Positions 2,025 to 42,638 of a stretch of 64,000 bases of DNA are shown one piece after another. Source of the stretch: Acanthaster planci. Taxonomy: Eukaryota. Numbering within the stretch: position 1 is the first letter of the stretch; each line of letters starts with the position of its first letter. A model generated the notes under the pieces. The model was not told the DNA's origin, ran no database searches, and worked only from the letters and a program-made list of their open reading frames with translations. The DNA lies in the NCBI RefSeq assembly GCF_001949145.1, contig NW_019091360.1:2788864-2852863 (forward strand), in the 5' to 3' direction. The position numbers and the translations under genes are program-made.

Positions 2025-5000
2025 CTTTCACCACAAACAAATCCATTCAAAATTACCACAGGAACATTTACTTCCTGGTAACTTTTAGTTGGCTAGGATC
2101 GACAGGTTATTTATGTCCTTCAAAACTCTTGTTAAGTTGAAAGATGGGCACAGTCATCATTGTTCCTGATATCAGTCATGACTCCCCGCATTTCATCAGA
2201 CATTGTGAATTTATTCACCGCTGTTCACTTCAGAAATGAAACCCCCAAAGTTAACATAAGTGGGCCATACTTTGTGGAACCTGCCTGCTGTCAAGTATGG
2301 GACAACATTGAAATACACTAAAGGTTCTTTGATTGCACATTTGGAGTGATCTAATTAGGGTTTTTTATCCAAACAAAGATGTGAAGTAGAAAAAATTCGT
2401 TAAAATATATAGTAACTTACCATGTGCACTTACTGTACAGTACTAATACAAGTACATGAACAATGTATTTAGGATTATTGATCATCGCCATGCACAGATT
2501 TTACACAACTTTCATGTACATGTAGGGCTACAAAGTCACCAACATTTTTGTGATACAATTTATACATATTTTTAGTTTACAAATTCAGTGGAGGGTATTG
2601 TTGAAGATTCCTACAAAAACATTCTCTTGAGTGTCTTGTACTGGTAGTATCTACCGGTCCTTTACCGGGTACGTTACTTTAGAAAGATGACCTTTAAATT
2701 TCAGCCCCTGTGTTAGTGAGTTCCACAGTAGACCTCAGACACAATGATGTTGTCACACCCCCACAAATCTGTCCAAATTGTATACTTGCATATGTACACA
2801 GTGCATGTGATTGTGATAGTGGGACAGTCCCAGCTGTGCTATATAGCACCACAGATGGGCCAGCCCAACTGTAGCACTGTGTGCCATTGTCTGCCATACA
2901 TTACCTGTACCAGTAAATTACGTCAGTGTCAGTTTGTCTGTATGCGTGGAGAATGTGTAGTTACAGTACATGTACATGTACAATGTAGGTTGTATTTGGG
3001 TCATGGATGAAATACCACGTTGAGGTAATTTTTGATTAATTCTGCTAGATGTGAGTGGCAAAACACGTGAAGGTTGAGAAATTTTCTATAGAAATTTGCA
3101 AAGTACCAGTACATGTCTAAGTAATTGGGCCGGACCTAGTTGGGACCATCCTAACTACATGCACAGTGTTTGTACATGTACATGTACCCGGCAGGTGGGT
3201 AGGCATCCACCAAGGTTAGTTAGGATCTTAGAATAGAAAGTGCCCATGAAAAAAAAAGTGAGGTTGATTTATCGTACACGTAGAAGGTAGGTCTGTTTGA
3301 ACACATTTATTGCAGAGGCCAAGAGGTACGGAAACCCTGCAAGTTGCAACAGGAATTGGAACTGCTGATCTGTAGTAAATGTTTTACGGGTACGTGGAAT
3401 GTGCCACATTCGGGGCAGTTCTTTTGCAAGGTTTGGGGATGGCTTTGAAGGGGATACATGTACATGTATTGCACAAGCTGTGACCATATTGCCCTCTTTG
3501 AAGACAGATGGGCAATTCCACGCAAAGGTGGACACGAGGGTGAAAATTTAAAATTCATCACAAACGAATTTGGTCTCAAATGAATGCTGAGGGTCTATAC
3601 TTTACTGTGTTCATGTTGTAATGTAATTTTTTCATTATTTGGTTGTAAAAATCAATGATTATGTAATTTTTTTTTCCAAAAATGAGGAAAATGATAGGAC
3701 GATGAATTGCACCCTGTGTGTCTAATAAAAATGGAAGTTGGCTGTATTTGTGGTTACATTAAGTGTTCAGATTGTTTAAAGGATATCTGGTCTGTGTTTT
3801 GACCTTTGCGGCATTCGTTATGTTTCAGTGGTCTCAAACATTTTGCCCCACTGGAGTGTCCTTCCGTTAACGTAAAAGTACATGCTTTTAGTATATTTTC
3901 AGATTTGAAGGAAAAAATAATTAAAAAAGACCAATGCAAAGTAAGTTTAGGTAGACCTACAACATCATACCATTAAAGTCATTTTTTTGCCCCCTACTCT
4001 TTTAATTATAGCTAATTAATACTTGCCCTTGGTTGGTAACGGAAGGACCAAAACAGCCGCTGAATTTTGTTATGACTGATGTTGTGACATCAGATCACAA
4101 CTAAAAGTGTTAATAGGCTTTCCAGAGTTATACTGGAGAGCTGATTGCTTTCTTCAGGTATCGATTGTTTTGCTTATTAGACGCCTTTCAGTGCCATACT
4201 CCATCACATGTACTCAGGAAATGAGTGAGTTGTCTTGAACGTGCCCACTTTGTAATGTGTGGTTATTTAACTGTACAGCATTCAGTGTGTCTACAACTTG
4301 ACTGGAGCAGTAAAAGAAATAATCTTCATTGAACAGAACGGTGTACTTACAAATATATTAAATTAAAAACACCCCCCCAAAATTAGAGACTAACCCTAAC
4401 TATGCTGAACCCAACAAGGTTATGCAGGATTTCTGAGGTCCCAAGGGGGTTAGGGATAAATTATATGTAATTAAGGAGCATTTGCCAAGTTTCAGACATG
4501 CTTTGCTTATATGTTCAGTAACACTGAGTACAGTCTATTGAGGACCAAGATTCCATCCAAGTTCCATACATATATACGTACAGGTAATGGAATTTTAAGC
4601 AATTTTAAACAAGCTGACCAGTCTTAAACACATACAACAGTGTATGCACACCAGAGACGTACATGTATAAACGCATAGACCGCCAGGTCCTATCCAAACT
4701 ACAGGGTTTTCGTTATCTGCGTGGCGCCCGACTAAAATCAAAACTATAGGCAAATTCACCCCATGGTGTAGGGAATTTACGCACAGTTGAAGAATTCCAG
4801 CCAGAAAATTCTATGAAGCCATTTTTCAATTGTAATTTTATCTTTTCTGGCTCAATTTATCTGGCTCAAAGGGATTCAAAACAAGGCAGTTGCAACAGTT
4901 GAAAAGAAGAGATACGTGTAAGAGCAACGAAGAGCAAAAAGGAAAAAGTAGGTTGGGAGAACATGTAAACAAATACAGGAAATATAAGTGCATTGCGCGT

Positions 5001-7049: not shown

Positions 7050-7320
7050 GGGTCATTCTACAAGGGTAAGGCACTGCTTGTGATGGTGTCAGTTGTTCAT
7101 TGGTTCCGTAAAGAATGAACAGCTATTTCCCTGCATGCGGATTCCAAAATGACGTTGTTGTACATCTTGCAAGGCTGAAGACAGAAGTGTGTGTGATTTT
7201 CACAGAGTACATGTACATGTAATTGTAAATGACGTCATGACAGAGGGGAAAAATTTCGCATGCCCTGGATGTAACAAGTGACACGGTCACAAATTGTGCT
7301 CCTTGTAATTACGGAAATGA
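7050..7320 (+). mobile_element. MITE family 1 copy with eroded right end
   Basis: Colinear similarity to 13387-13651. Confidence 0.75.
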
Positions 7321-9599
7321 AATGTAACCAATTCCCCAACTGTGCTGACGGAGACTGTTCAAAAAACAAATGCACTGGTATACATGTACACGTACACTAC
7401 ATGTACTGGGACCTTTTATTTCAGTGCCACTCGTCTTTAAATTTTATTTCAAATTGAAACAACATCTGAAAAACTGATTTTAGTTTTAGAAGCACCGGGG
7501 TACTTGATTGCAAATTTCAGTTTTATATTTTTCATGTTTATACATTTGCCAGTTTTTAAAAACATTTTTGCATTTCTGTGGTTGACAGATGTACCTTAGC
7601 AAGGTCCATTTCATTTCTCTACACACAGGTTTTTCACATGCCTGAAAACCACACTGTAAAAAAAACCCTCTCCTGTAATGTTAAACAAGCTCGTAAATTA
7701 GAAAGCAATGTCAACCAGCCATCTGTTGTTAGAAAATAGAGAGAGAGAAAAAAAACAACAGGGGTTGTTGCCCCAAATGCATTGTTTGCAAATGAGGGAA
7801 ATGCAGGATAGCAGGACCACAGAATATCCTAAGGGTGAATCATCAGGTACATTGTGATTGTGCATGCACATGTACCCTGTAGGCACTGTATGTCCATCAT
7901 AGAACCAGGTGTCCGGAAACAGGATGTTCACTGGAACAATTAATGTGTAATGTCTGCTGTTGACTGACAGTCAGTGGATGAGTTGTTCACACTTGCACAG
8001 GTGCATTCTGCATGTTCATGTACGTACGTGTATGTAAATGTACATATTGCTACGTGTTTGGTTTTCTGAGAAAATGTGTTCATACCCCGGTGCACGCACT
8101 GTACACAATTTTAATCAATTGTGTTGCACAATGTTCCTTTTCACAAAGTTATGATGAACAACTTAAACAGGTGGACTGATATTTCCTTATACATGGACGG
8201 TAGTTGTCCTATTTGACACGCATTTTATTCATATTGAAACTGTGTACTCTGCTGTATGTACATGTAAATATACCGGTATCATGATGCACAAATTTATGTT
8301 CTTCATGTCATTGCAAAAAGTGAAAACAACTGTGACAAACACTCAAAATAAATTAGCAGTAATTAGAAGGCAACGACCAGGCAGAAAAATCTGCCGGTAC
8401 CCGATATATGTGTGATGGGCATTCATCTTTGTCTTCACTGTGCAAGCAAAATGTTTTGGTTTTTTTTTGAAATTATGGAGAAGTTTTACAAAAAAATTTC
8501 TGTCTTGAAATTTACGTGTACATGTGCAAAACGGAGACAGCTTGTATTCCTTGTTAAGAGACCACAGTTTATACAAACATGTAGAAAGGTTGATTGATGT
8601 ACATTGTAATGGACTGTGCTCTATGTATCATGGGAGTACCCGTGGCTTATTTGCATAATTCACCGTTTCGTGGAAATCCAGCCGCCCATTGTCCAGATTG
8701 CAATTAGTCTGTCAGAGCGACGTCTTGTGAGGAGGCAGTAGGGTACATGTACATGTATTGTGTACAGATAGTCTGAGACAATGCAGTACTTGGGCATTGT
8801 AACAGAAAAAAAATTGCTCAAGCTACAGTACATGTACAAAGGTGTCATTAGATTGTCTGGGTAAGTACTTGTATGTATTATCATGAGGTGGAAGGTGTCT
8901 GGGGACATACCGGTATGTACTAAAATCAACCAAACTTGATTTACAAGTGTAAGAAATGACCAATTCCCAGTTTGTCAGGGGTGCATACATGTACAATTAG
9001 TTTCTCAGTGCTGAGCTTTAATGCCAGACAAGAAATGTACATTGTACAATTCTCTGTTGCACCAAAAGCAAAGTTTAATTTATATATACATGTACATGTT
9101 CATGTGTCGTTGAAAGAAAAAAAAAAAAACAAATTAAAAGAAAAATATTGCATTGACATTTGACAATGCAAAATCATATTTTCACTATTTTTAGCTTTTC
9201 CTTGTTGTAAAACTGGAAATGCTGTAATAAGTGAGGGCAAAAAACTGTTGTGAGTAGGATTTGGGGAATTCGACCCCATCACCGTGTTTATTTGTTCCTG
9301 CATAGTTTTGCAATTTTTTGCATAGCTCTTGCACACAAACTGTCGGGTGGGAGTGCTTATGTGTAGAGTGTACTTTGTACGCTCACATGCCAGTCATGTT
9401 CCACCAACACAATGTGTCCCTTCATGTTTTGCATAGTTTTGCACAATATGCACACCATCAGTAATGCACACACACATGCATGCACTGTACGTACATGATC
9501 ACCTTGAATGCTCACTATTTGCCTTGAATGCTTGCCCGACACGTACACGTACATGTACATGTATGTTACATGCTCGTGCACTGGTACTGTACGTGAGTT

Positions 9600-9934
9600 C
9601 AAGGGGGCGGTCGGTTAAACGTCAACCAGCAGAGAGGAGATTGCCCTTGCTGAACCTTAAGATGACTCATCTTCCATCCCTCATCTCATCTCTTGGAGGA
9701 TGCGGGCCGTGTGTGATGTAAGAGGTAGGATGCTGAGCCGGGAGGGGTTTGTTCTTCCCAGATAAAGGCCTGCTGAGTGGTTGTCGTGTCGTGGCACGTC
9801 TAGTGTTTGGTGCGTTTATATGTTCACTACTTCCAGATAAACAGGATTTGGAGTGGAATATTCTGGCCTCCATATAGTCATCAGCTGTGTGTATATTTTG
9901 CTGTCTTAAAGACAAGAATTCGTCACTCACAAGG
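9600..9934 (+). promoter_or_regulatory. Candidate promoter and non-coding 5' exon of the Bcl-2-family gene
   Basis: GC box GGGGGCGG at ~9603, locally higher GC/CpG, donor-like AAGG|GTAACG at 9935, matching acceptor at 10747 just upstream of the ATG. Confidence 0.3.
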
Positions 9935-10259: not shown

Positions 10260-10332
10260 TTAACCCTAACAGTCCCAAATTCTCCCATTTCAATACGATT
10301 TTACATACACGCCAGGGGCTTAGGGTTTTAAT
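10260..10332. mobile_element. Second copy of the piggyBac-like micro-MITE
   Basis: TTAACCCTAACAGTCCCAAAT..CATTTCAATACGATT..ACATACAC shared with 60504-60571. Confidence 0.6.
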
Positions 10333-10836
10333 ATTCATGTAGTGGTACATTGTACATGTACACCTGTACATTGTACATTGTACCTTTACACATGAACTGG
10401 TACCGTACATGTGCCTAAAAAAGTACATGTACATGTACATGTACGGTTCCTTTTCACATTTTGCAGACAGTCTGAAATTAACGGTATGTTCTTTCAAACC
10501 AACATTCATAATGTCCTAATGTGAATTAAATATACTGTAAATCATGTTAATTGTTACTGGGCCGACCGGTCTGTTGACATTTTCATCTATTGTACATTTA
10601 TACTTTAGTATCATGTATTGGATTCTTATTATTATAGATGACATTTTATTATTTTTGTGACACCAAGTTGTTCTCTATTTGTTATGCTGTTGGTTAGATG
10701 CTGATTTCAATAGATGTTACAGACTTATCTTTTTTGGTTTTGTACAGGCTAATTGATCGATTGTTGTGAAACTGAACTCTAACTGCGTGGTATACTAGTG
10801 ACCTACCAAAGCTGCATTGATTAGCAGTGTGTAACC

Positions 10837-12313
10837 ATGGACTCCACACCAGACACTGGTCACCAGCTGGCAGACGTCCGGCTGAACTCGGCAACAACGC
10901 TGGAGATGGAGACATCCGGAGAGATACCTTACATGGATGCGGACGAGCCCGCTCCATCTCCCCCCTCCTCCCGATCGGGAACCCTAAAGGCCCGGAAAAG
11001 CTCCAAGGGGCGGAGCCCTAAATGCTCCCCACTGATGGTGAACAAGGAGAGCAGCATCCCCATTGTCAAGAAGGAGGCAGAGAAGGTCATGGAGATGTTC
11101 TTGAAGAGGCGGAGCATGAGCATGAACGATGCCATCCTGCAGAAGGAATTCTTCAGTCAGGAACGGAGGAGAAAGAAAGACCGCGCCCCACGGAATAACA
11201 CAGTCTCGATTTGTTCCACAATGAGCACAGACTCCAGCGACTACCGCAACAGTGGAGATTTTGAGGAGGCCACCCTGACAAGAAGCAAGGGGAGCTTCAG
11301 CAGAGCTTTGGAGAACTCTGTTTTGCCGGGAGATGTGCGGCGCGAACAGTCATCGGCAGACGACGAACTGTCATCGTCTGATCATGAAATGGACAAGGAG
11401 AAGTCTCGTTCAGCTCCGTCCACCCTTCGCTTGCAGGTTGGTCGGTTGACCGAGGAAGAACTTGAAAAACTGCGGGAAGCAGGCAATGGCTATGCCCAGC
11501 ATGACAAAGATGGCGTTAAGAAAGATGTGAAGAAGAAGGACTTGCCCAAAAGGCGGAAAAGCCTGCTGGACAAAGCCAAGCAAATCATTCGCTCTCCTAG
11601 CATGCAGAGGAAGCATGACCACTCAGAGGAGAAAGAGGCCCCAGTGGGTCCCGATGAAACCTCGGCCAGTCGATCTAAAGTCCACCAAGAGATGAAGCGT
11701 ACTGGCTTTGCCAACAGACTGAAAAGGACATTCAAACGGGACTCCCGCAAAAGCTCTCTGAAGAGTTGCGAGTCAGAGACAAGGACTCCCACCCCACCAA
11801 ACTCGGCCTCATCAGAATCCAAAGATGGGAGCAAAACAAGGCGATGGCCGAGTTTCCAGCTCAAGAGGAAGCCGCGGAAGAGTGCGTCGACCCCCACCGA
11901 CGATAGCCTGGCCGGGGCTACGCCCTCAGACACAACATCCAATGCTGACTGGGCCTCGGTCAGCGACTACGACCACACCCAGAGCCTGACGGAGTTTGAC
12001 CGGAGGAAGCTCCTAAAGGAGATCCACAATGGCGTCCAGTTGCGCCATGCCCAGCAGGCTACCGGCAGTGATTCTCAGCTCCACGCCCAGAGGGCGGAGA
12101 AGTTACCATCTCGGAGAAGCGCCCCAGAGCCAGAGCACTGTGGGTTGGGCTCTACGGGCACCCAGACCCCCTCCTCAGTCCTTTCCAGCTCCCAGGAGTC
12201 CGGAATGTCATCTGACTGGTCGTCTGGAGGATCAGGCCAGAGGACACAACGGCCCAGGAGCCTGAACTTGACGAGATCAAGGCGGCACGAACGAGCAAGG
12301 CAGGGACTTAATG
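10837..12313 (+). CDS. Bcl-2-family gene coding exon 1 (BH4-like helix, Ser/Lys/Arg-rich disordered region, WH2-like motif)
   Basis: 494-codon GC-rich ORF. Upstream acceptor TTTTGTACAG ends at 10747. Inferred phase-1 GC donor AATG|GCAAGT. Confidence 0.85.
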
Positions 12314-15300
12314 GCAAGTGAACATTTCAAATAATAGTTAAAAATAGAACAATGCATCCAAATCAACAAGGGACATTCCCCCGCAAAATCTCATCACACG
12401 AACATTGCTCATGACATGCTGCAAGAAAAAAATTCCGTAGGGCACAGAATGGGAAACAGTCCCACAGTCATTAAAATTTTGTTATTTCAGTCAATTTTGA
12501 TTTCTCTAGAAATATTTTTACTCTGTTTTGGAGAGAAATGCCCTTCCCAGTATGTTTAAAGAGACAATCATGAGAATCCTGGGAATTTATGTAAAAGAGA
12601 GGATCAGGTTCTGGCATGTGAGAAAAATTTACATACTCGTGCAAGGTAAAGATTCACTTCAGAAAGGGAAGAAAAACCAACACAGTAAAATTACTATTAA
12701 AGATGATGGCCCTCAAAAATACCAAACTGATCTCCATATTAACTAAACTTTTACATGTATGTGTTTAGTGTGGGTATTTGAGAGTTTGACTCCTGCAGTG
12801 GCATCTTGTTTTTACCGTCCTTGTTTTTGATTCACCCATTGTCGTTTTGCTCAGATGTCTTCAAGTTGGACAGGATTACCCCGGGCCATGTCCGCCGTGA
12901 CACGGACACGCGACAGCCCGTCATGCCCACTGCCCAGGATGACATTGACCCGGACCTGGAAACGGATGGGATCAATGACACTGAGGATGACATGAGCGGT
13001 AGGTCTCAATGGAACATTCTTCTTTGGTAATTTACAAGTGTAATATGATTCGTTGGTGGATAGTCAATACTATTGCCCTAAGGTATTTGACCTTGACAAA
13101 CTAGTCCCCGGTATAGGCCAAGGAAATAGTTTGTCAACTTACATGTACCAATTGGGGCTAATATCAACTATTTGCCCGAACTATACTTTAGGAGTGCAAA
13201 AAAACTGTGATTGAAATATGTGTGCTGCCATCTTTTAATATTCAGCTGGGAGGATGTTTTGACGTGGACAGTAACCCTTTGCGACTCTTCCCCAGTTGCT
13301 TTTGAAAGTGCACACCGAGTCTGTGAGGCATACAGTGTACATGTATTCAACATCTGCGTGGATCATGGCCAACGTGCCTGATAAACGGGTCATTCCACAA
13401 GGGTAGGGCACAATTTGTGATGGTGTCAGTTGTGACATCGGTTCTGTAAAAATGAACAGCTATTTTCCTGCATGCGGATTCCAAATTGACATTGTTATAC
13501 ATCTTGCAAGGCTGAATACAGAGGTGGGTGTTATTTTTACAGAGTACATGACCCTCTAATGACCCACTCTGCAGGTCATGACAGACGGTAAAAGTTACCC
13601 ATGCAACAAGGACACCATCACAAATTGTGCCCCAACCTCATGGAATGACCCAAACGGCAATGTACCAGTTGATACATGTGATGGTGAATGGACCCTTTAG
13701 GCCCCGAGCGACATCATTGTCAATGAATATGGCGCCCTCTCTTGTTTGTGCATGGAATCTATTGCTTTATATGCAGTGGTATGCATAAGTGGCATACGGT
13801 AGCACCACTCACCAATAGAATATTGGAATAAAGAATGTGGGAGTTACTGTGATATCTTTGATTTTGTGGCTCCTGTTGTAAGTTCGAGTTTTTTTCTCTT
13901 GACCAAAGAAGAATATCCTCATTTTTAAGTATTTTTGTTGTTCCCCACAGAATAGACAGATTATTGTGTAGGCTTGTGTGTAATTATGATCAGACATTTT
14001 GTCTAGCAAAGGTACTAATTTCACTGAACACGTGCCAAGGCTGCTTAGAATCTGCACTCTTTTTTTTGGCATGGAGCTTTTTAATTTAGATGTATTCTAA
14101 CTGGGGAATGGTATATCTAAAGTCTTTAAACTGAAAAGAAAAAAAGCCTTGATATCTAAATGTACATGTTCATGTATGTCTGTTTGCAGCATAGTGTCCA
14201 GATTTTCATAGAGCACTGATGAGTTTTTCAGGAAAAAAAACAAACTACTATCTGTGCTGGTAGACATGACGCACAAGGTGGAAAAATGTGTACAAAATAC
14301 CTGTGAAATCTGTGTATAAATTTAAACCTGTCAAAGAAGCACAGGATGATGTAATCAAGACGCCATTGATTGTGGAACTTGATGAAGTAGAGGTAGACAA
14401 AAAAAAAATCCGGAAAAAAGAAAGGCTTTGCTGTAACCACACGAAGTCAAAACTTCAGCCGCCTTTGTTTCCCCCGGCAGTTGATGGGGGCAACGAAGAT
14501 GCGACTTTGCAGAGGCCATCCAAGCGGGAGAGGGAGGAATTCTACAAGCGGATCGCCGACCGGCTGGCCCAGATTGGAGACCGGTTTGTGACAGAGTACC
14601 AGGAGGGTCTGGTCGGGGAAGATGAACAGGCCAGGCCCGTTTCCAGACAGCGAGCGAAGGAGCTGGGAGCATCAGCTGTTCCTATGGAAACGAGCGCGGC
14701 GGCAGCCACCGGAAGTACAGGTGAAGTTTACCGACTGCTCTGAATTTTTTGTTGAAAGAATCCATGCGGTGAAGTTTTCACCTTTTGTTTTGCACCTTCC
14801 TACTCTTCTGCAGTGTACCTTACAATAAGGTACACTCAGGAGTTGGCATCCTGTTAAGGTTGACAATAAAGAAAAGTCCAAGCTTCCCTCGACAACTGAG
14901 GGCGCTGTTACTGCAGTGTCAATCAGTGAAGATGCTCTTTGTTTTTACAGTTCAAATTATGAACCCAGAATTGCTCGAAAAAAAACGTCCGAGCAAGTGT
15001 TGCTTGTTGGCTTATTTTCAAATTACTTACACAACAATAAATCACTAAAGAAAAGGAAATTTAGGATGGCAAAAATGAAACAAAAAGTGAATTCTTGTGT
15101 GCCCACATCAATGCAATATTGAGATTTTTCTCCTTGGCCGACATCACAATTGTGCTTATTAATATTTAAATTTGCATTTGCATTGAAAACCCAAAATGAA
15201 AATAAGGTTAATTGAAACACAGGAGAAAAAATGCCCAAGTCAGTTTTTAGCTAAATGTTCAAAATGTTAAGCACAATATCACCCCTCATTCGGAATGCAC

Positions 15301-18300
15301 TTCGTGTTATTACTTAGCAACAGAATTGCTAAAATTCTCGTATACTAGTGGCGTGTGGGATTGCAAGGACAGTTTGTGTCTACATGTACCGTACATGTAC
15401 ACTTACTAAGATTACATTGCTGAGAAATGAATTTCAACTTCTAAAGCAAAACTGTGTTTTTCCCCTTTTTTTGGGGGGGAGGCTTTGAAATCTTTTCTGC
15501 CTTCCTGGTCAGTGTGAGTCTTTATGATTTGACAATGTTTGTCTTTATTGTGGTTCATCTTGTGGATAATTTTTCAGAATCGGATGATAGACTGTTTGAT
15601 AGCATCGGTGGAAGGATACGGGACCATGTGGATGGTTACCGAGTGGTAAGTAATATCAGCCAATCACAGTGAGGCCTGGTTACCGAGCAGCCCTGTCAAA
15701 CCGTTCAAATACATCGCCAGTGATGTTTCTTTGATCGTGTGGAACGTAGGCATCCACAGATTTTCCAGTGGCAAATATGGTCGTCCTGCTTTTAATTCTT
15801 GGTCCAGATGTGTACTGTGTACTCTAAGCAGCAACTAGAGCAAGTCACCTTCCCAATGCCCACCTTCCCCAGCTTCTATCAAATTGCACATGAAATGCTA
15901 AATCACATGCTTCTGAAGCTGAACATGCAGACTTCAAAACTGTCATTTGATACTAACAAGTTTGGAATACAGGTCTCTTTTTTGTATCAAAGGATATGTT
16001 ACAAGATTAATCATACATGTACATATATATGTTTGTAAGTTTAATAATAATTGATTGTTAAAAGAACTGACAATTTTTGAGTGTTTGTGCACATTTGCCA
16101 AAAATGTACGACACTATTTGCTGGATGCTATATTTTTTATTTCATTTTGGATTTGAGTTTGATTAAATTCATAGACTGATTTTTCTCAACATTTCAGTTG
16201 TCTTTTTAAAATCAGAAACCCAATTTATTTGTTAATTGATTATATTACTTTGATTTGATTTGCTTTTTGTGTTGCAATCCCTTCCTTAGATTGATCTGAT
16301 TGTTTTTGAGCTTCTTAGATTAAGTGGCAATCCAATACAATCGCCTTTGTCACCAGATGTAGATATCACCTCGGTACGTTTCAATAAGGTTTCTCATGCC
16401 ATAACGTGGTTCTTACGTGCTTCATCAAGTAGTTAGCTCATGCACTTTGGACACCCACTAACATGAGGTACTTACATTGACACGCCATTTCCACAATTCA
16501 GCTGCAGTCCATCAATTCCTGGTGGTCAGTGTTACTTTCCTTGAGTCCCATATGAGGCAGCTCAGGTTGGATTCCCACCTTGCACACTACGCAGATGGAA
16601 TTAGCACAGTGACACTGCCCTTTACATTCAATGTGATCAAGGTTCAAATCCTGTCACCTTGTGAAATTGATTCGTCCGCCAATTAACTCTGCAGGCTGTT
16701 TTGCCATCATGCCTCCAAAACGGACATATCCTTCATCATCACCTTCTATCAAAGTTTTTGGCTAAAATCTTAAGGTTAAAATTGGCTTAGATATATGCAT
16801 CAGTTCATCAGCACTGTAAGAAATGATAAGAAAAGATACTTAGCCAGTAAGAAATCAAATTTCCGCTGATGAAGTTACTCCTTCCTGACAGTGTATAGAG
16901 TGTTAGGGCAGTTCTGACATGTTAGTGCTTTGCTCACTTTCCACCTTTGCTAAACCCGAGGTTGAAGTCTTCTCTGAAGCACTGTGAGGATTTAGTCAGT
17001 AATTTTGTTAATGTAATCAGCTTTTTCAATTTTCTCTCTAAACAATTGCAGTGAAATCAGTTATATTATCATATTTAGTTTTTCCAAAATAATTGACACT
17101 CCTTGTAGTTAGGGAACCAAGTTTCCTGTTGAATTTTTTCAATCCTCAGCTTCAGTTTCAAATGTCATTTTTGAGAAAGCAAAATCAGAAAACATAAAGT
17201 TGTCTAATCCAAGACCCAAATTTGTTGTATTTTTATTTGGTTCCAACTGTGAATGTTTGAGAAATGAGTCTGTTTGAAAATGGACATGAAGCAGGATAAT
17301 GCAAAGCTGAGTTAAGAATATGGCCCGAGACTGTCTTTGCTTGATGCCATGGTCACAGAAGACAGGATTCTATGCAGACATCTTCATTCCTAACACCCCA
17401 TAACTGATCCTGCGTCATGCGCACACATTCATTCATGCATTTTGCCCTTCCATGAAAACCCGCACAGATGTAGCATATACGTATTTGTGCTGAAGCACAA
17501 GAGGCAAGGGGTGACATTGACAAGCAGGAGTTTGGTATAGCTTGAATTTTCTGTTCACAACGAGTAATCACAAACATTGGTGTACGCTGTCAGAATGCAC
17601 AGTGTACAAGTAACTCTGTGACAAGAATGACTTTGTAACTGAGCAAGTCTTGTTGAGATAGCTAACATGCTGGCTTAACCCATGGAATGTGGGACATCTA
17701 AATTTCGTTAACAATTTCCACACTAATTGTTCCTATTTATAATTCTCTCCCTTCCTCTTGGCCTTACCCGCGCCCTGTATACACACTGCAATTGACTCCA
17801 TTTATGTTGTATCGGTTGGTCTTTGAACCCCCCCTCCCCACACCAAAAACCCCCTCCCAAACATTTCATTTTACCACCGATATCGCTGCCACAAAATGCT
17901 TTCTTCATCCTCTTGTCACTTTGTTGACACTCTCCATTCCCCATTCCATCCTTCTCCATCCCTGCTCGCTCTCTTGAAATTCCCTGATTGTTTTGTCGTA
18001 ATTTTGAAATATTTTGAAAAAAAAATACCCAAACCAACAACCCACTCCCTGATGCTACCCCCCGCGGCCCTCCTCGCCGCTTCACAGCGCTACAACCAAC
18101 GCCTCCACCCCTTCTCGCCACAGTCAATCCTGTCAGTGGTCCGCGACCACACCTACGCCGTCTTCCGCGACACCATGCAGTCGCTTATTGGCCAGGACAC
18201 GGGCTTTGAGCAGCTGGCCTTGGTCTTCAAGTTCACCAAGCTGGCCATGAAGATCGCCCAGCACTATGGCTCCCGGGCCAACGAAATCAAGGACAACAGC

Positions 18301-18818
18301 CTACGGTACATCGGAGATCGCTTTGCTGCCTGGCTGGACAGCCAAGGGGGCTGGGTAAGGACAAAACTGAATGAGACTCTGTCAATGGTAGCCCTCATAG
18401 AAAGTGAATGACTCACAATATACTTTATCTGCCAAGTAGCATGATGCCCAGTGCTGCAGTTAACGTTGTAAGGTTACACCATCCTCAATCCCTCAAAATC
18501 CTAAAATCCAAGTTGTGGGATTTGAAAGATCTGGGTACTATTATGTCAAGTGAATTTCGCATGAAGACTCACTCGTATACTATGCATAAGTGTGATGTGA
18601 TTGATTTTGGAACTTTCTGCAGTCTAGCATTTTGTGCACCAGTGATATTGTGTTTTAATCGATCCAGAAAGATTCTCATGTGAAATGTTGTTTCCACTGA
18701 TATTCAAGTCTTGTTCCCATTTTCTTCCTCTGACATCCTGCAGGGAGCTGTGGTGTATTCCAGTGACTCAGAAGAAGAAGGGGAACAGTCTCATCATGGG
18801 GAATCGGAAATTGATTAA
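10837..18818 (+). CDS. Bcl-2-family protein, BCL2L12/BCL2L14(Bcl-G)/BID-like, ~744 aa, 6 coding exons (whole gene span)
   Basis: join(10837-12313,12855-12998,14481-14720,15578-15645,18124-18354,18744-18818) = 2235 nt with all splice phases compatible. BH3 IADRLAQIGDRF; BH2 FAAWLDSQGGW followed by the phase-0 intron typical of the Bcl-2 family; no C-terminal TM helix; ends ESEID*. Confidence 0.85.
12855..12998 (+). CDS. Bcl-2-family gene exon 2 (contains LETD|G)
   Basis: TTTTGCTCAG acceptor, G|GTAGGT donor, phase 1-1, open frame DVFKLDRITPG...DLETDGINDTEDDMS. Confidence 0.8.
13387..13651 (+). mobile_element. MITE family 1 (~265 bp, ~41-bp TIR GGGTCATTCCA..., 4-bp TSD AAAC)
   Basis: TIRs GGGTCATTCCACAAGGGTAGGGCACAATTTGTGATGGTGTC / GACACCATCACAAATTGTGCCCCAACCTCATGGAATGACCC; further copies at 7050 and 50337. 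Confidence 0.8.
14481..14720 (+). CDS. Bcl-2-family gene exon 3 (BH3 motif)
   Basis: CCCCGGCAG acceptor, ACAG|GTGAAG donor; EEFYKRIADRLAQIGDRFVTEY matches LxxxGD. Confidence 0.88.
15578..15645 (+). CDS. Bcl-2-family gene exon 4 (68 nt)
   Basis: TTTTTCAG acceptor and GTG|GTAAGT donor. This phase 1-0 exon is needed to join exon 3 to exon 5. Reads ESDDRLFDSIGGRIRDHVDGYRV. Confidence 0.75.
18124..18354 (+). CDS. Bcl-2-family gene exon 5 (core helices, BH2)
   Basis: CCACAG acceptor; SILSVVRDHTYAVFRDTM...FEQLALVFKFT...YIGDRFAAWLDSQGGW|GTAAGG. Confidence 0.9.
18744..18818 (+). CDS. Bcl-2-family gene terminal exon 6
   Basis: CCTGCAG acceptor, phase 0, GAVVYSSDSEEEGEQSHHGESEID*. Confidence 0.75.
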   Translation, partial: GAVVYSSDSEEEGEQSHHGESEID

Positions 18819-27790: not shown

Positions 27791-28028
27791 TGAGCAGTTG
27801 GTATTGTTCTCAACCTTACCACATTAAAGATGTAGTTTTTTGGCATAGAGTAGATGTGAATTTTTATATTGAAGACTTGTGAAATTGAATTTGGATATCA
27901 GTCTCGAAGATTTCTTGATCAATATAAGTTATTGCAGAGGAGAACTACATGTTCCTAAAGAAACTGTCTTTAGATTTGATAGGAACTGTAGCATGTTCCT
28001 ATTAAATTGTTTCATATTTCAGTTAGAG

Positions 28029-28230
28029 ATGGGGACTCGCAGCAACACCCAGCTGAAAATCCAGAAATTAGACACAAAACTGAAGAGCAACCTGCACAGG
28101 CACAAGACTGACGAGCTGGACGAAGTGGATTGGTTGGTTGTCAGGCGAGGACAACCATTCCAGCTTGACCTGACCCTGAACCGCCCATACAACAACAGCA
28201 CTGATGTCCTTGAATTTGACTTTCAAACAG
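28029..28230 (+). CDS. TGM: TGM-A coding exon 1
   Basis: [10 protein letters not shown]...[11 protein letters not shown]...DFQT G|GTATGC. Confidence 0.88.
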
Positions 28231-31200
28231 GTATGCAAAGACCGAGCAATATTTTTAAAGTTCACAAACCTCTTTGCAGGCATAAAATTAATAGACTTAG
28301 TAGTGTCTGCTGTGTTACCACACTTTGGGGAACAAAAATGTGATATTTTGTGTAGAAATCTTCCAGATAATGACATCTGAATGTATGGTATCTCCTTTTC
28401 AATCTCAAATAAAATGTATTTATTCAGGTTTTAGAAGCACAAATATATTTTCTCTTTCAACTTGAGTTTAAAGTCGGATTCATGCATAATAATCAACTGA
28501 ATTTTATTTGTCCAATTGATTTTCTTCAGGTAAAATGGCACTGAATTCCTTTGCCCCTGCATATTTTGCACCTTTTTTCAGAAAACATTTCAATGCTTTG
28601 TAAGTTTTTCACAAAATGTGTCTCTTTTGTGATTTCTCAGGAAAAACCAAGAATTTCCGGAGGGGGACGCACGTCGTTGTGTCAATCGGTGAGCAAGACC
28701 TGCCTCTAGCCAGAGGATGGAAGGTGCAAGTTGATGAAGAGAAGAACAACACACTCACTGTGTCCATCGCTGCCTCTCCTGATGCACCGGTGGGAAAGTA
28801 TTCCCTTGCTGTGCGAACTGTAGTGAAGTCAAGTGAGCCAGTTTTTGTTCCTTGAAAAGAAATTAGAGCAATCTGTTAATGCCAAAGAATGATTTGGAAA
28901 GTGCACCATGCCAAATTTTTTTTGTTGCCATGCAAAATACAGAGAAAATGTTACAATTTTTCTGGGGGGGGCATGCCCAAGTAGAAGTCCGCCTCTCCCC
29001 CCATGTCTTATATGTACATGTACACAATCAGTGTACAAGCCACAATTCACTTGCTTTCAGTGCCCCTCTTGAAAGAAAAAAAGGGTGAACCCCGGATGGC
29101 CCTGCAGAACTTTTTTCACCCCAGTTTCACCCCTCGGTGACTCAAACCTGAGATGTTTCATTCTCTTCTCTTAATTGTCAGTCAAAGCAGAGGACTCATT
29201 CAAGGAGCCTCGCCCAATTTATGTCCTCTTTAATGCCTGGTGTGAGGAGGATCAAGTCTACCTGGTACGGGAAGAAGAACGAAGGGAGTACGTGCTAAAT
29301 GAGAAGGGTTACATCTGGTACGGCAACTCAAATCAAATTGGCAGGATGGCCTGGGGTTTCAACCAGTTTGAAAAGGGTGTCTTTGAGGCAGTTATGTACC
29401 TACTAGAAACTCATGTAAGTGTCAGAGATAGACCCAGGTTGTATTTGAAAATTATGTGCTGATGCACTTAGGGCTGCGAAAGGTGCACCCTTAACCAAAT
29501 ATCTGGTGATACATAATCGATATGGGATCCATAGTATTTTTATTTCCTGAAGCCTTTGCAAGTACCTACACAACCCTTCTTAAGGGAGAAACAATTTTAT
29601 TTGATCTTATTTTATTGTTAACATGCATATTTAAATAATACAGTGGACTCTGCTTTGTTCATAATACAGTAGAAATGAATACACTATAATAAATAACGTG
29701 GGGTCCACACAAAATTCATTCATTCTGGGAGTCATTCGGTAGCCGGTGTCGTTCCCAGTTCCATCCTGTTAAATGTGCAGCAGCCTGCTTGCCTCTTTTT
29801 TTTGGCCCATCTCATGGTTGGGGGAAGAGTAGGGAGAATTCCGCCCCCAAGAAAAAAACTTTGTCGTCCCCCTCCCCGAACACTCATCAAATTTGAACTC
29901 AATCTGACTTACTGTTTTGTTGTTACGGTCATTTGAAGTTGAAGGCCTCGTGCTTGTTCACTCATGTGCATCAAGCATGTCAATGGAAAATGTGTACATT
30001 TTTGGCTGACCTGCCTCAGCAAAATGGCAATTTTCACTAAATCAAGTTTAATAAAGTAACAAGATATTACTTTAAGAAATGAAGATTCAACGTGTAGAAA
30101 TGCACTGTGGCGATATCAGGTACCGTTTTCTGGCTCTTCTAGGATTTAGTAGTGTAATGTGACCTGTTGCAATTGTTAGTCAATAACAAATGGAATGTTT
30201 GACCTTGTCAATTGTTTTGCGTAGAAACAAATTCCAAATCACTCTGCCTTGTTGCTGACTTTTGTCACATATCATCAACATTCATCAACAATCGCAGATG
30301 AATTTTGATCATTATTTGCAATGAAGTATAGTGCTAATAGAATTTGTGTTAATTCTGGCAACTTTTTTGAATGTAGTTATGTGAATTCAAGTCGCAATCA
30401 ATTACAGTAGGATTGTTTGACTTTATAAAAGGTGGGTGAATATGAACGTGGAAGCTCTGTCCTGGTCTCTCGTTCCATGTCAGCTGCTGTGAATTCCCAG
30501 GATGATAATGGAGTCTTGACTGGACGTTGGGGAGGCAACTACAAGCCTCATGTGAATCCATCCTTCTGGACTGGCAGCCAGCGCATTTTGGAGGTAGATG
30601 AAAAATAATCATTACAATGAAACTGTTGATTCTGATGCAGTCATCGCTGTACATGTGGATTGCAATGTGACTGTTAGTAGTGAAAGCCTGTGTATGACCA
30701 GCAAAAAAAATTGCGGAGTACTTCTGATGTCATTTAAGGGCATTGCTCAGGGCTTTCTCAGAAGTCTTGAAAAACAAAGACAAGTTGCTCAATGGATCAC
30801 CATGATCATGCAAAATACTAGTGCAGATGTGTCATTGGCCCCTGTGTAGTCTTGATTCAAGACGTTCTTTTGCGATACAGACTTAAAATACCTGCTGCCA
30901 GCTCCCTCTGCAAGCACAAATCATACACATAGCTCTCTGCACATGCAGTCCACAAACCCGACTGACTTACGTAAAGAGGTGCCAGTTGCCCAGTGCAGTA
31001 ATGGAGCACATGTGGCGGGCACTAACTAGTTGACCGCATACATTGGTGACAGATCTGACTTACCACACAAACCTGACTTACCCACAAACCGCTCCCCGTC
31101 ATGATTGAATGCACTGCCGGTGAAAGCCCTCTATTGGTGGTTTGTATGCCGTGCACCAAGACTACGATCCTGAACAAACTAGTTGGAACACCATGTGGGA

Positions 31201-34200
31201 AGCGCGGTGAAAAGATCCCCCTCGCTACCATTCAATGTTGCAGTCATTTACTGGACCAAGATTAAGCCGAGCTTACCCAATGAGAAACAACATTGACAGG
31301 GGAGAGGGGGAGGCATGTTCCAATGAGATTTGTCCAGGATTGTAGCCCTTGTGGTATTATTGTAAGAGAGGTCTTGAGGGTAGGCCAGCTTGGATATTAA
31401 TGGAACAAAGTCATTTTCTTTTTCAATAAACATCAGTATCAAGGCAGCTAGGTGGTCTTTTTAAAGTTACCTCTGGCAAAAGAGTGTAACATACATGTAC
31501 ATCTAGGTATATATACAAAAGCATTTGTTGCAAAAAGTTGACAAGAAGCCTTCAACTTTCTCACCTCTCCAACAGAAAACTATTTACTGGCCTGTTGCTT
31601 TGACACTGTTTTGATTTAATTAATTAAAAAAAGAGCTGTTTTTCAGCTGTGTCCTGATGGATCTTTGTGAAGTAGCATGGCATATTTGTGAAGACATCTG
31701 TTTGAGTCTGTCTGTGAAGTTTCAATTCAATCCGACAGAGTTTTGATTTCAAGGTCAGTTATAGTTTACACTCTAACATTTGTCAGCATGTGAACTGGGC
31801 GCATGCTCATGGCATAGGAAAATGTCACAATCTGTAGGCAGCCTTTCTTGAATAAATGGGCAGTATTTAAGAACAGCGCATACGTGTATGATTTACACAA
31901 AATTGCTGTCAAATCACTGTAAGACATCGTTATGACCCCCCTCCCAAGCTTTTTCATGTTGCAAAGTCCAGCTGGGAGGATTCATAAAAAAAGCCATGCC
32001 TTCTTGTTTGCTGTTGTTTCCCGAGTTCACTTGGTCAGTTTTTATCTCTTTCAAACTATACAGGAGCATTTCAAGACCAAAAATCCTGTCCGTTATGGCC
32101 AGTGCTGGGTGTTCTCTGGAGTCCTCACCACTGTGCTTCGATGTCTTGGCATTCCTACCAGGAGCGTCACCAACTTTGATTCAGCCCATGACACCAATGA
32201 CAGCCTGACCATTGTAAGTTTAACACTGGGCTACTTTAATTTAGCCACTATTTAAGGCCCCACACAAGAAATCAAATCCAAGTATATACACCTTTGTGTG
32301 TCATTTAACCCCATTTTCAATTCAAATGGTGTATGAGAGCTTTTTGTTTTATATGCTAATAAAACTTTACATATTCCCGACCACAATTATACCATGCCCA
32401 AAATTAGATATATGGACACCATTACTTTCTGGATCTTTTGTTATTTTGCACTCCCAAATTTTGTTTTTTATATGCCAGTTTTTTGTTTCAGTTCCTGAGA
32501 ATAGGTCAGTTAAAGATTTGTCAAAAATACTTTCAGTGAGCAAATTTTGGATGGATAGTTTGAGTAGAAAACTGATTTTTTATAAACAGTGTCTCCCCGG
32601 AATGAAATCACAGTTCACTCATTTTTTTGGAAAAACATGGAAAGTTTTAAGTGTTTCAAAATAACCAGTGAAGATTTGGTGTGGTAATGCAGCCAACATT
32701 TTATCTTATTTCACCATCTCATTTCCCCAATGTCCGCTACAGGATGTGTATTTTTGATGAGAACAATGAAATAGTAAATTCCATGGAACACGAAATCTGG
32801 AATTTCCATGTCTGGAATGAAGCCTGGATGAGCCGGCCAGACCTCCCACCAGGCTACGGTGGATGGCAAGCCGTTGATGCTACACCCCAAGAAACCAGTG
32901 GCCGTATGTATACTATGTGATCCTTTAGTCCAACTCTGTAAAGGACTGCCGTCTACTAGTTGTGGTATATCTTAAACAGTCAGTAGTTTTGGCCAACGTG
33001 AAATATTACACCTCACCCGGGTCGTGTTTGTTGTTGAGTAATACAGCCTGTAAAGTGGTTGAAAGTGGTGTTCTTCTTTTTTCATGTTGTGAAGCAGTTG
33101 CAATTATTTGTAAATGTAGAAAAGTTTGTCCCCTTTTCAGAAGCAGGATTTAAAAGTTATTTTTTTTCTGTCTAATTTTAAATGCGAGTTTAAAGTTTAG
33201 GGAAATATTTTACAGCCCCTTATATCCTGTATCAGTCTTTTGACTGATTACTCTGTGCCTACTGGCATCCAATTTCTGTAGTTTTCATTTCCAACTGAAC
33301 ATATTTTATATGTTGACCTGAGGAAAAGAAATCCTTTTCCGGATTGTCATTCACCCTAAAAACAAATGATTTTCAGGCTGCAGGGAAAAAGGAAATGTTA
33401 AAGTTGTTACTGTCAGTGATCAAATGCAGAAATTTTGCTGACTAAAATCTCTAATTTTCTTTGAAATCAATTGTTTTGTGATGTTGTGGTGTTTTACTAG
33501 GTATCTTCCGCTGTGGTCCGTGCCCTGTTAGTGCCATCAAACAGGGCCAAGTCTACTATCCCTATGACACAAAATTTGTCTTTGCAGAAGTCAATGCAGA
33601 CATCGTTCACCTGCGGGTGAGTGAAAGTCTGTGTACTGTACCAGATAAGTTTGGTAGTCATAAGTTTCAGTCTTTGTCTCTCGGGGGCAAATCTGTGTAC
33701 ATTTTTCAGATTTTGTTGTAGTTGAGAAATATTCTTTGATCAAGTGTTCCTTTTTATAAATGCAAATTTTGTAACCATTGGTGGTTGTGGAATGCGTGTG
33801 ACCCTGGTGATGATGATGTTGAAATGCACAAATCTCTTGAGTAATGAGTCACTAATTTTTGTGACTCAAGTTGAGTCATTGTAATGCAATAACTCGAGTT
33901 GAGCCATAAGGCAAAAATCTTGAGTCGAGTCGAGTGTTTAGCTTGAGTCAATTTGAGTCACCAGTATTTGAATGCAAAACAAAATTTGTAAAAGGGGAGA
34001 AAATCATTTAAAAAATTTACCTGTGGGTTTCTACATATACATGTGGTCACATCACATCGAACTCTTACTAATCGTTGCACATAACAGGAACATAAAGTGG
34101 CGCTATAACCCGCTGCAAATATTTTTTTGCGAGGAAGTTTGCTTTCACGTTTCAGACTCGAGTCATTTAACTTTCACCTGAGAGTTGAGACAGGTGTTGT

Positions 34201-41965: not shown

Positions 41966-42256
41966 TTCACCAAACTTTAAGAGGCAATATTTGAAGACTT
42001 CTTGCGAATTTGAATGTGAATTTGTATTGTTCATTGAAGCTTCAGCTTGAGAGGGAAACTACATGATCTAAATTCTTTTCAGAACTCACTCAAAAAAAAG
42101 AGATATATCCATATGGTGCTACCACAAACCTATCTAGTTTACTTGTTACCTCCACCATGAAAAGCTTCAAATCTCATCTAAAGGAAATGTCTTTAAATGT
42201 TTATATTATGACCTAGCACTTTTGTAAATTTCTTATGATTCAATTTGTGAATAGAG

Positions 42257-42638
42257 ATGGGGACTGCATCAAGCAGACGGGCTGCAGGGAGTACTGGTCC
42301 TTCCTCAGATGTTGTTTGGATTGGCCCAAGAAATTATGTGACCAGAATGGAGCCAAGACGCTACCATTTCTTTGATGGTGATGAGGCTCGTCGGCCCTCC
42401 CGTATTAACCCAGCCCTGGAGGAGAGGCGGACCCCAACACCGCCTCCCACCGATGCCCAGCTGAAGGTTGAGAACTGCAACTTGCAGCCAGCAAGCAACA
42501 AGTTCTTGCACTACACTGCTGAGCTGGACGAAGTGGATTGGTTAGTTGTCAGGCGAGGACAACCATTCCAGCTTGACCTGACCCTGAACCGCCCATATGA
42601 CAAGAGCACCGATGATATCAAATTTGACTTTCAGACAG
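42257..42638 (+). CDS. TGM: TGM-B coding exon 1
   Basis: MGTASSRR...[11 protein letters not shown]...DFQT G|GTATGC. Confidence 0.9.

What the first reader, a model, noticed from the sequence alone, without database searches (positions are those of the whole stretch)
11998..12051. WH2-like actin-monomer-binding motif inside the Bcl-2-family protein
DRRKLLKEIHNGVQLRHA fits the WH2 pattern: an amphipathic helix RxxLLxxIxxG followed by an LKKV/LRHV-type motif, as in WASP/WAVE/Spire/JMY. It is the only ordered-looking island in the latter part of an otherwise low-complexity exon. Actin binding is inferred.
Basis: partly seen in the sequence, partly recalled or inferred. Interest (0 to 1): 0.75.

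Follow-up and report, generated by a model that had tools for sequence, protein, structure and literature searches.

The report
Actin-binding motif in starfish Bid-like protein
A crown-of-thorns starfish protein of the Bcl-2 cell-death family carries a short WH2-type motif in a long loop predicted to be floppy; the motif likely binds actin and would link this likely Bid-like death regulator directly to the cytoskeleton.

Summary
11998-12051 (+) encodes DRRKLLKEIHNGVQLRHA, residues 388-405 of an expressed Acanthaster planci protein (LOC110985049). Pfam WH2 is its only match but scores under the cut-off (22.2 of 23.1 bits). A profile from 8 orthologues finds 7 WH2 chains among 12 PDB hits. The WH2 anchors are kept in sea stars, sea cucumbers and two unnamed records. 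Sea urchins keep only the helix, and the crinoid and non-echinoderms have nothing there. Folding with actin gave weak support (0.59; best control 0.02), possibly from memory of solved WH2 complexes. The host protein is not a canonical Bcl-2 but Bid/Bfk/Bcl-G-like. Its predicted helix 1 (residues 74-92) folds onto the C-terminal core. The motif therefore lies in a predicted ~460-residue loop, upstream of a caspase-type LETD|G site and a Bid-like BH3. Best reading (0.65): one actin-binding WH2, not a nucleator. Bolder reading (0.25): an actin tether that caspase cleavage removes from the BH3 fragment. UniRef already names the Patiria orthologue 'WH2 domain-containing protein'; my searches found no paper on it. 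Binding is untested.

The parts
11998..12051 (+). WH2-like motif DRRKLLKEIHNGVQLRHA (aa 388-405): helix R389-L392-L393-I396, G399, then LRHA in the LKKV position
11983..11997 (+). SLTEF, likely the N-cap that extends the WH2 helix; S383 and the E/D at 386 are kept in all 16 eleutherozoan-type rows, urchins included
9531..9724 (+). 5' non-coding exon (start = end of the contig, not a mapped start site)
   Evidence: contig; splice sites read
10748..12313 (+). exon 2; ATG at 10837; encodes aa 1-492 (helix 1 and most of the loop)
11056..11112 (+). predicted helix alpha1 (pseudo-BH4 position, aa 74-92), which folds back on the C-terminal core in the model
   Evidence: pLDDT 85-94; VIA-align ranges ~72-744 over whole Bcl-2 chains; conserved in most of 50 family members
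11548..11589 (+). basic-hydrophobic segment KRRKSLLDKAKQII, conserved across the bilaterian family (KKKSxFKRAxERL); membrane binding is a guess
11689..11733 (+). second basic-hydrophobic segment EMKRTGFANRLKRTF
12250..12270 (+). RPRSLNL; RP..L kept in all 20 deuterostome rows; resembles a MAPK docking motif (label recalled)
12314..12854 (+). GC-AG intron (donor GCAAGT)
   Evidence: joint 12312/12854 in 15 raw RNA reads from 3 runs and a contig
12855..12998 (+). exon 3
12956..12970 (+). LETD|G (aa 527-531), caspase-type site ~40 aa before the BH3; cleavage inferred
14481..14720 (+). exon 4
14552..14587 (+). Bid/Bfk-like BH3 IADRLAQIGDRF (aa 565-576) in the predicted helix 555-586
   Evidence: Bfk BH3 peptide quoted in PMC8814693
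15578..15645 (+). exon 5 (placed from a 70-nt unlisted piece of the contig and GT-AG sites)
18124..18354 (+). exon 6, Bcl-2 core helices and BH2 (WLDSQGGW), no NWGR motif; isoform X2 (P0001) starts this exon 36 nt earlier
18744..18818 (+). last coding exon to the stop; acidic tail ending ESEID, no transmembrane helix; 3' UTR runs to at least 20309

Best explanation
Residues 388-405 form a single WASP-type WH2-like motif that likely binds one actin monomer, and it sits in the predicted ~460-residue disordered loop between helix 1 and the BH3 helix of a likely Bid/Bfk/Bcl-G-type Bcl-2 protein of the crown-of-thorns starfish. Shown: the sequence, the spliced and expressed gene, the register against solved WH2 peptides, and the taxon pattern. 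Predicted: the helix and the fold topology. Inferred from established WH2 structures: L392, L393 and I396 would pack in the actin subdomain 1/3 cleft and L402-R403 would run along the actin surface. With one copy and no central/acidic VCA segment after it, it would bind or tether actin rather than nucleate filaments. It likely arose inside this loop in the sea star/sea cucumber/urchin ancestor and lost its LRHA half in sea urchins.
For: The 36-aa fragment's only Pfam match is WH2 (22.2 bits, E 1.1e-4); 4 of 8 orthologue fragments hit WH2, best E 6e-5, and no other family. The single sequence against the PDB ranks two N-WASP WH2 chains first (E 0.018, 0.4), in identical register with RDALLDQIRQGIQLKKV. 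The 8-orthologue profile gives 12 hits at E<=10, 7 of them WH2 chains: N-WASP x2 (best E 3.3e-5), VopL, INF2, WAVE2, MIM and WASP. R389, K391, I396, G399, L402 and R403 are invariant in those 8, while 398 and 401 vary. The core LLxxIxxGxxL[KR] occurs in 26 of 93 stored family entries, all from sea stars, sea cucumbers or P0004/P0005-type records; it occurs in 0.015% of exon shuffles (pattern written after seeing the alignment). Folding with a metazoan-type actin: score 0.59, best of 3 controls 0.02, runs share >=78% of contacts, partner pLDDT >=57; verdict weak support. That mark was reached by 51 of 78 solved and 2 of 108 mismatched pairs, but at <=0.60 by only 5 of the 78 and by all 4 passing mismatches of 180. 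UniRef names the Patiria orthologue 'WH2 domain-containing protein'. Loop position.
Against: No Pfam score for this protein reaches the curated cut-off of 23.1; on whole proteins only 3 of 11 hit WH2 at all. The same profile also hits 4 DSN1 entries (E 0.008-0.025, one stretch, above several true WH2s) and a ribosomal protein. The single sequence also gives 21 DAPK1 rows. Chance helix matches at this level therefore exist. All 6 urchin-type rows keep SLNDxERRxL..EMR but lack the LRxA part. The 5-sequence urchin profile finds no WH2 in the PDB (0 of 2 hits) or Pfam (0 of 5), so the helix can be kept without the WH2 signature. Position 394, polar in the solved WH2s seen here, is L, I or V in 11 of 16 rows, hinting at a wider binding face. 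The motif is not more conserved than the rest of the exon: 58% of windows scored as high (though MAFFT misplaced the LR columns there). The complex score is in the range the tool calls more often wrong than right unless the guess was likely beforehand. WH2-actin is a textbook pair, so the pass may be memory; peptides and disordered chains were not calibrated, and the actin was a stand-in.
Confidence: 0.65

Rival explanations
1. The conserved unit is an amphipathic docking helix (SLxE/DxERRxL..E/DI/M) for a partner other than actin, one of many short motifs in this loop. The WH2-like GxxLR tail in sea stars and sea cucumbers is a partial coincidence.
For: Urchins keep the helix almost invariant but not the tail. 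Position 394 is hydrophobic in 11 of 16 rows. Unrelated helices (DSN1, DAPK1) score like WH2s. The loop holds many equally conserved motifs. The family outside these echinoderms has no such motif: every stored entry outside the 39 top rows scores <=3.8 bits.
Against: G399, L402 and R403 are invariant across 8 non-urchin orthologues at exactly WH2 spacing, which a helix-only function does not explain. 7 of 12 PDB hits are WH2s from six different proteins. The actin complex scores 0.57 above its best control (weak).
Confidence: 0.25
2. The motif binds actin but works as part of an actin-assembly module (WASP/Spire-like nucleation or Arp2/3 activation), or binds filaments as an SFM/Lifeact-type helix.
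For: The tail of the protein is acidic, and oligomerisation could cluster single WH2s (speculation). JMY and WHAMM link WH2-based actin assembly to intrinsic apoptosis (PMC8084344, abstract).
Against: There is one WH2 only, and single-WH2 proteins are judged unlikely nucleators (PMC3849942). No central helix or acidic-Trp segment follows it; the only nearby-acid Trp at the C-terminus is the BH2 Trp (read from sequence). The spacing plus the C-terminal L-basic segment is the WH2 pattern, not the SFM one (PMC13364712, passages).
Confidence: 0.07
3. The helix is a second, BH3-like or intramolecular helix that packs on the protein's own Bcl-2 core.
For: It is a predicted amphipathic helix in a Bcl-2-fold protein.
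Against: The BH3 Gly-Asp positions read His-Asn or Arg-Arg. Neither Pfam nor the PDB gives a BH3 hit for it, whereas the true BH3 pulls 5 Bid peptides among 6 hits. 58 of 97 stored family entries lack the helix, and many of them keep the same Bcl-2 core.
Confidence: 0.03

Closest known systems
WH2 motifs of N-WASP, WASP, WAVE2, MIM, INF2, VopL (Pfam PF02205)
   Same: Same register: R..LL..I..G..L-basic. It lies in a predicted disordered region, and the predicted complex with actin is weakly supported.
   Different: It scores below the Pfam cut-off. It is a single copy with no C/A, poly-proline or I-BAR context. It ends LRHA/LRRA/LRSS instead of LKKV/T, sits in a Bcl-2-fold protein and is confined to part of the echinoderms.
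Bfk (BCL2L15) and Bid
   Same: Bcl-2 fold without NWGR or a TM anchor; a Bid-like BH3 (5 Bid peptides among 6 hits, E 0.6-1.8; Pfam BID E 7e-4, below cut-off); helix 1 covering the core; a caspase-type site in the loop before the BH3. Bfk 7ccl: Z 13.7, rmsd 3.2, 127 aligned, 21% identity, the highest identity listed but tied in Z with Bak, BOK and a sponge BHP2. Bfk features from PMC8814693.
   Different: The loop is ~460 residues with many conserved motifs, against ~19 in Bfk. No WH2 or actin binding appears in the Bfk passages read. Orthology was not tested, as no vertebrate sequence was in hand.
Bcl-G (BCL2L14) / BCL2L12
   Same: BH3+BH2 without BH1; the ESM Atlas ranks BCL2L14 clusters 2nd and 3rd (0.86, 0.85) and BCL2L15 4th for the C-terminal domain, a lead only.
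   Different: The 2023 BCL-G review has 0 occurrences of 'actin' or 'invertebrate' in its main text; Bcl-G binds TRAPP and is not clearly pro-apoptotic (PMC10244440, passages).
Bmf (and Bim) cytoskeletal sequestration
   Same: A BH3-bearing protein held on the actin cytoskeleton and released on a death signal (PMC3414384, passages): the functional analogue of the bolder reading.
   Different: Bmf is BH3-only and is held through the myosin V motor complex, not by a direct actin-binding motif or a caspase cut.

Membership tests
WH2 motif | Amphipathic helix with hydrophobic LL..I | tested here: met
   L392-L393-I396; helix 386-406 at pLDDT ~80; I396 invariant in 8 of 8
WH2 motif | L-basic-x-V/T/A segment at WASP spacing after the helix | tested here: met
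   LRHA, 5 residues after I396, in register with N-WASP LKKV; LR in 8 of 8 non-urchin fragments; last residue A in sea stars, S/P/Q elsewhere; absent in 6 of 6 urchin-type rows
WH2 motif | Pfam PF02205 gathering score (23.1 bits) | tested here: not met
   16.3 (whole protein), 17.1 (exon), 20.8 and 22.2 (fragments). WH2 motifs are known to be missed by standard profiles (PMC4314737).
WH2 motif | Lies in a disordered region | tested here: met
   pLDDT <50 for 344-378 and 406-472; prediction only
WH2 motif | Predicted docking on actin | tested here: inconclusive
   weak support: 0.59 vs best control 0.02; agreement >=78%, pLDDT >=57; no interface given; may be memory of solved WH2-actin complexes
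WH2 motif | Measured G-actin binding | not testable with these tools
   needs a bench assay
WASP/Spire/Cobl-type nucleator | Tandem WH2s or a WH2-C-A module | tested here: not met
   one motif per protein; no C/A segment seen after it
Bcl-2 family | Bcl-2 helical fold with BH2 | tested here: met
   family profile hits Bcl-xL/Bcl-2/Bax at E 4.5e-9 to 2e-7 (best 60 of 135 shown); VIA-align top rows Z 13-14.4, rmsd ~3, ~130-140 aligned; Pfam Bcl-2 E 1.3e-4 but 22.9 bits, under the 31.4 cut-off; Foldseek no E<=0.001, though all 45 listed rows are Bcl-2 folds
Canonical multi-domain Bcl-2 (Bcl-xL/Bax type) | NWGR BH1 motif and C-terminal TM anchor | tested here: not met
   TGFEQLA at the NWGR position; tail is acidic, ESEID
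Bid/Bfk/Bcl-G clade | Bid-type BH3 in helix 2 | tested here: met
   IADRLAQIGDRF vs Bid IARHLAQVGDSM and Bfk IAGRLRMLGDQF; individual E-values are weak
Bid/Bfk/Bcl-G clade | Caspase site in the alpha1-alpha2 loop | tested here: inconclusive
   LETD|G present. [EVIT][TVIL]DG lies within 75 aa before the BH3 in 15 of 50 members (1.7 expected from shuffles) and [VITL]DG in 26 of 50 (6.4 expected); both patterns are post hoc and both are absent in the 2 sea-cucumber and 4 urchin rows. Cleavage untested.
Bid/Bfk/Bcl-G clade | Phylogenetic placement with vertebrate BID/BCL2L15/BCL2L14/BCL2L12 | not tested
   none of the hits I could name was vertebrate (20 of the 109 hits looked up by name there); the tree has invertebrates only

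The most novel reading that the evidence does not exclude
Sea stars have a Bid-like Bcl-2 protein that binds actin directly through a WH2 motif in its giant alpha1-alpha2 loop. A caspase cut at LETD|G would separate the actin-bound N-terminal part (inhibitory helix 1 plus WH2) from a tBid-like BH3 fragment, making one protein a direct switch between actin state and mitochondrial apoptosis. It would belong to an overlooked, widespread invertebrate Bid/Bfk/Bcl-G-like family.
Probability: 0.25. Interest if true: 0.8.

Novelty: new variant of a known kind. Interest (0 to 1): 0.5.

Why it matters
The links between actin and Bcl-2 proteins in the papers I read are indirect (Bmf through myosin V; JMY/WHAMM through Arp2/3). 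A Bcl-2-fold protein with its own WH2 would be a direct link. It is testable with one peptide, in animals (Patiria, sea cucumbers) that are standard models for oocyte actin, oocyte apoptosis and regeneration (general knowledge). The pattern across the family is absent in the crinoid, complete in sea stars and sea cucumbers, half lost in urchins. That is a natural series for asking whether a WH2 can arise afresh, which PMC13364712 (passage) says WH2 did not do. Tempering this: the motif call is already in an automatic database name, it is lineage-restricted, and binding is unproven.

Tried and rejected
No whole genome is held for this window, so paralogues and the starfish's own actin were not examined. 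A metazoan-type actin from a metagenome contig (L077, 372 of 376 identical to PDB 4jhd_B Actin-5C) stood in. Giant-virus actins were too divergent to serve as the actin chain. The first structure model (9 sequences, pTM 0.18) did not fold the core and was not used for fold search. Foldseek gave no hit at E<=0.001. The ESM Atlas gave no usable hit for the motif region, which shows nothing. The recalled loose WH2_2 pattern was rejected as uninformative (46 of 93 entries; 25-36% of shuffles). BH3 reading of the helix rejected (see rivals). DSN1 and DAPK1 matches are taken as chance helix matches; the DSN1 stretch has a Pro inside the helix and no LR tail. The window-identity ranking is weakened by MAFFT gaps at the LR columns. 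No run that holds the stretch is on record as RNA; expression rests on the laid raw reads. The earlier-findings look-ups returned nothing. Paper searches for a Bcl-2 protein with a WH2, or for invertebrate Bcl-G/Bfk/Bid, found no paper describing this protein or motif; these cover open-access full text only and I read listings, not all hits. Table S1 of PMC4314737 (list of divergent WH2s) was not opened and could bear on prior notice.

Full report
Gene and organism. The motif lies in a 498-codon open frame at 10825-12321 (+). Exon 2 (492 aa) matches Acanthaster planci LOC110985049 (XP_022101591.1) at 100%. A 4,009-nt contig of run X1 gives exons at about 9531-9724, 10748-12313, 12855-12998, 14481-14720, a 70-nt unlisted piece that fits 15578-15645, 18124-18354 and 18744 onward. 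The six coding exons translate to 744 aa, identical to isoform X3 (P0014). The intron after exon 2 is GC-AG, seen in 15 raw reads from 3 RNA runs; these runs also cover the motif at low depth.

The motif. 11998-12051 is DRRKLLKEIHNGVQLRHA, residues 388-405. Pfam WH2 is the best match, at 16.3-22.2 bits depending on the piece, always under the 23.1 cut-off. Against the PDB the 36-aa piece ranks two N-WASP WH2 chains first (E 0.018, 0.4), in the same register as RDALLDQIRQGIQLKKV; the other 21 of 23 rows are DAPK1, a chance helix. A recalled ELM-type WH2_1 pattern matches; 0.10% of 20,000 exon shuffles do.

Conservation. Orthologues fall into three states. Complete: sea stars (LL.EIHNGV.LR.A), two unnamed ENA records P0004/P0005 (LL.EIHQGVHLRS; class not determined) and sea cucumbers (M[LV]IDIRRG[IV]HLR.S). 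Helix only: 6 of 6 urchin-type rows (Diadema x2, Lytechinus, Strongylocentrotus and two unnamed), e.g. SLNDAERRRLIIEMRQARRE. Absent: the crinoid Antedon, hemichordates, amphioxus, molluscs, Lingula, annelids and Priapulus (names). Scored with the motif profile, 28 of 97 stored entries give 67-75 bits (the profile was built from some of them), 11 urchin-type entries give 19-34 and the other 58 give <=3.8. None of 45 further family proteins hits Pfam WH2 at E<=0.5. In the 8 complete fragments R389, K391, I396, G399, L402 and R403 are invariant. Their profile finds 12 PDB sequences at E<=10: 7 WH2 chains (N-WASP x2, VopL, INF2, WAVE2, MIM, WASP), 4 DSN1 entries and 1 ribosomal protein. The urchin profile finds no WH2. 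Against the WH2 reading, the exon as a whole is about as conserved as the motif, urchins keep the helix without the tail, and position 394 is hydrophobic in 11 of 16 rows.

Complex with actin. Residues 378-420 were folded with a metazoan-type actin from locus L077 (372 of 376 identical to 4jhd_B). The score was 0.59 (runs 0.58-0.60) against a best control of 0.02; the runs agree in at least 78% of contacts and partner pLDDT is at least 57. The alignments were not used and no interface was given. The tool calls this weak support: the mark was reached by 51 of 78 solved and 2 of 108 mismatched pairs, but at 0.60 or under by only 5 of those 78 and by all 4 mismatches that passed (of 180). Peptides are uncalibrated, and WH2-actin is a solved pair, so the pass shows likeness rather than binding.

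The host protein. The family profile matched 109 representatives at E<=0.001, many of them 450-930 aa invertebrate proteins. They share an N-terminal helix (E[AT]..[VI]L[ED].FL), a KKKSxFKRA segment, a BH3 (IA.RLA.IGD), a BH2 (W...QGGW) and usually an acidic tail such as ESEID or DSELD. With 50 sequences the model gives pLDDT 85-94 for helix 74-93, 87-93 for helix 555-586 and 89-97 for most of 651-730 (pTM 0.47). VIA-align spans model residues ~72-744 on whole Bcl-2 chains (sponge BHP2 Z 14.4, BOK 14.0, BAK 13.7, BFK 13.7 with the highest identity, 21%). Helix 74-93 is therefore predicted to be alpha1, and residues ~95-554, with the WH2, form the alpha1-alpha2 loop. The BH3 exon piece pulls 5 Bid peptides among 6 PDB hits (E 0.6-1.8) and resembles the Bfk BH3 quoted in PMC8814693. 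NWGR and a TM anchor are missing. The Atlas points to BCL2L14 and BCL2L15 clusters (0.85-0.86, a lead only). In Bfk and Bid a caspase cut in this loop removes the inhibitory helix 1 (PMC8814693, abstract and passages). Here LETD|G lies 40 residues before the BH3 leucine. A similar site is enriched just before the BH3 in the family (15 of 50 vs 1.7 expected; looser pattern 26 of 50 vs 6.4; both patterns post hoc), but it is missing in the sea-cucumber and urchin rows. WH2 and site therefore coincide only in the sea stars sampled.

Mechanism. Shown: sequence, expression, WH2 register, taxon pattern. Predicted: loop position and weak docking on actin. Inferred: the helix enters the subdomain 1/3 cleft, where WH2s bind (PMC13364712, passages), and the LRHA segment extends along actin. 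One WH2 is unlikely to nucleate (PMC3849942, first of two parts). I put actin binding at 0.65. The cellular role I favour is a tether or sensor: WH2 and the basic amphipathic segments would hold the uncleaved protein at cortex or membranes, and cleavage would free the BH3 half. This is like Bmf's release from myosin V (PMC3414384, passages) but direct; I put it at 0.25. A non-apoptotic, trafficking-type role like Bcl-G's (PMC10244440, passages) is also open.

Novelty. WH2 motifs and Bid/Bfk-type proteins are both known. UniRef already names the Patiria orthologue 'WH2 domain-containing protein', so the motif call exists as automatic annotation. Six paper searches (open-access full text, listings read) found no description of the combination. 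A survey that counts 7 Bcl-2 proteins in A. planci has no mention of Bcl-G, BCL2L14, BCL2L12 or Bfk in its main text (PMC8998228, passages); whether this gene is among its 7 was not checked. Other papers seen: PMC4314737 (first of two parts), PMC3034019 (passages), PMC8084344 (abstract and outline). ELM patterns, the MAPK docking label and caspase preferences are recalled, not from a call.

Verdict. A real, moderately well supported WH2-like motif in an unexpected host: new variant of a known kind, interest 0.5.

Noticed in passing
window 11056-18818; P0038-P0141: The host belongs to a widespread invertebrate family (echinoderms, hemichordates, amphioxus, molluscs, brachiopod, annelids, priapulid) of Bid/Bfk/Bcl-G-like proteins with loops of 100-600 residues; all 20 looked up are unnamed, uncharacterised or given unrelated names. 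Its tie to vertebrate Bid/Bfk was not tested by a tree.
   Followed up: partly
window 12956-12970: Caspase-type LETD|G 40 residues before the BH3; a hydrophobic-D-G site is enriched there across the family (26 of 50 vs 6.4 expected) but is lost in sea cucumbers and urchins.
   Followed up: partly
window 15578-15645; e.g. P0039, P0041, P0057: A second BH3-like LRxxGD segment follows the first in hemichordates and molluscs and aligns to the Bcl-xL BH3; in echinoderms it has drifted (IRDHVD).
   Followed up: partly
window 12314-12854: GC-AG intron supported by 15 raw RNA reads from 3 runs; gene callers that miss it run the exon on to a false stop, as in P0004, P0005, P0007 and P0008.
   Followed up: yes
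window 18744-18818: C-terminal ESEID / ETEVD / DSELD tail conserved in most of 50 members; resembles EEVD-type TPR-binding ends (recalled).
   Followed up: no
window 12250-12270, 11548-11589, 11689-11733: Other conserved loop motifs: RPxSLxL (MAPK-docking-like, label recalled) and basic-hydrophobic helices that may bind membranes.
   Followed up: no
P0006, P0007, P0157-P0159: Sea-urchin-type orthologues carry a 60-130-residue E/K/R-rich insert in the loop, the likely source of names such as 'trichohyalin-like' and 'SAFB-like'.
   Followed up: no
window ~27870-36300 and ~42250-51720 (+): Two tandem transglutaminase genes: Transglut_N at 27873-28340 and 42251-42721, core at 31923-32252, C-terminal pieces at 35908-36294 and 48584-48964.
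   Followed up: partly
window 11983-11984: An allele in run X19 has AG>TC, which keeps Ser383 (AGC to TCC), the predicted helix cap.
   Followed up: no
window ~1690-1990, 4390-4900, 7120-7290, 10260-10330, 13430-13650: Short interspersed repeats with high RNA read depth from other loci; the copies near 7120 and 13450 are related.
   Followed up: no
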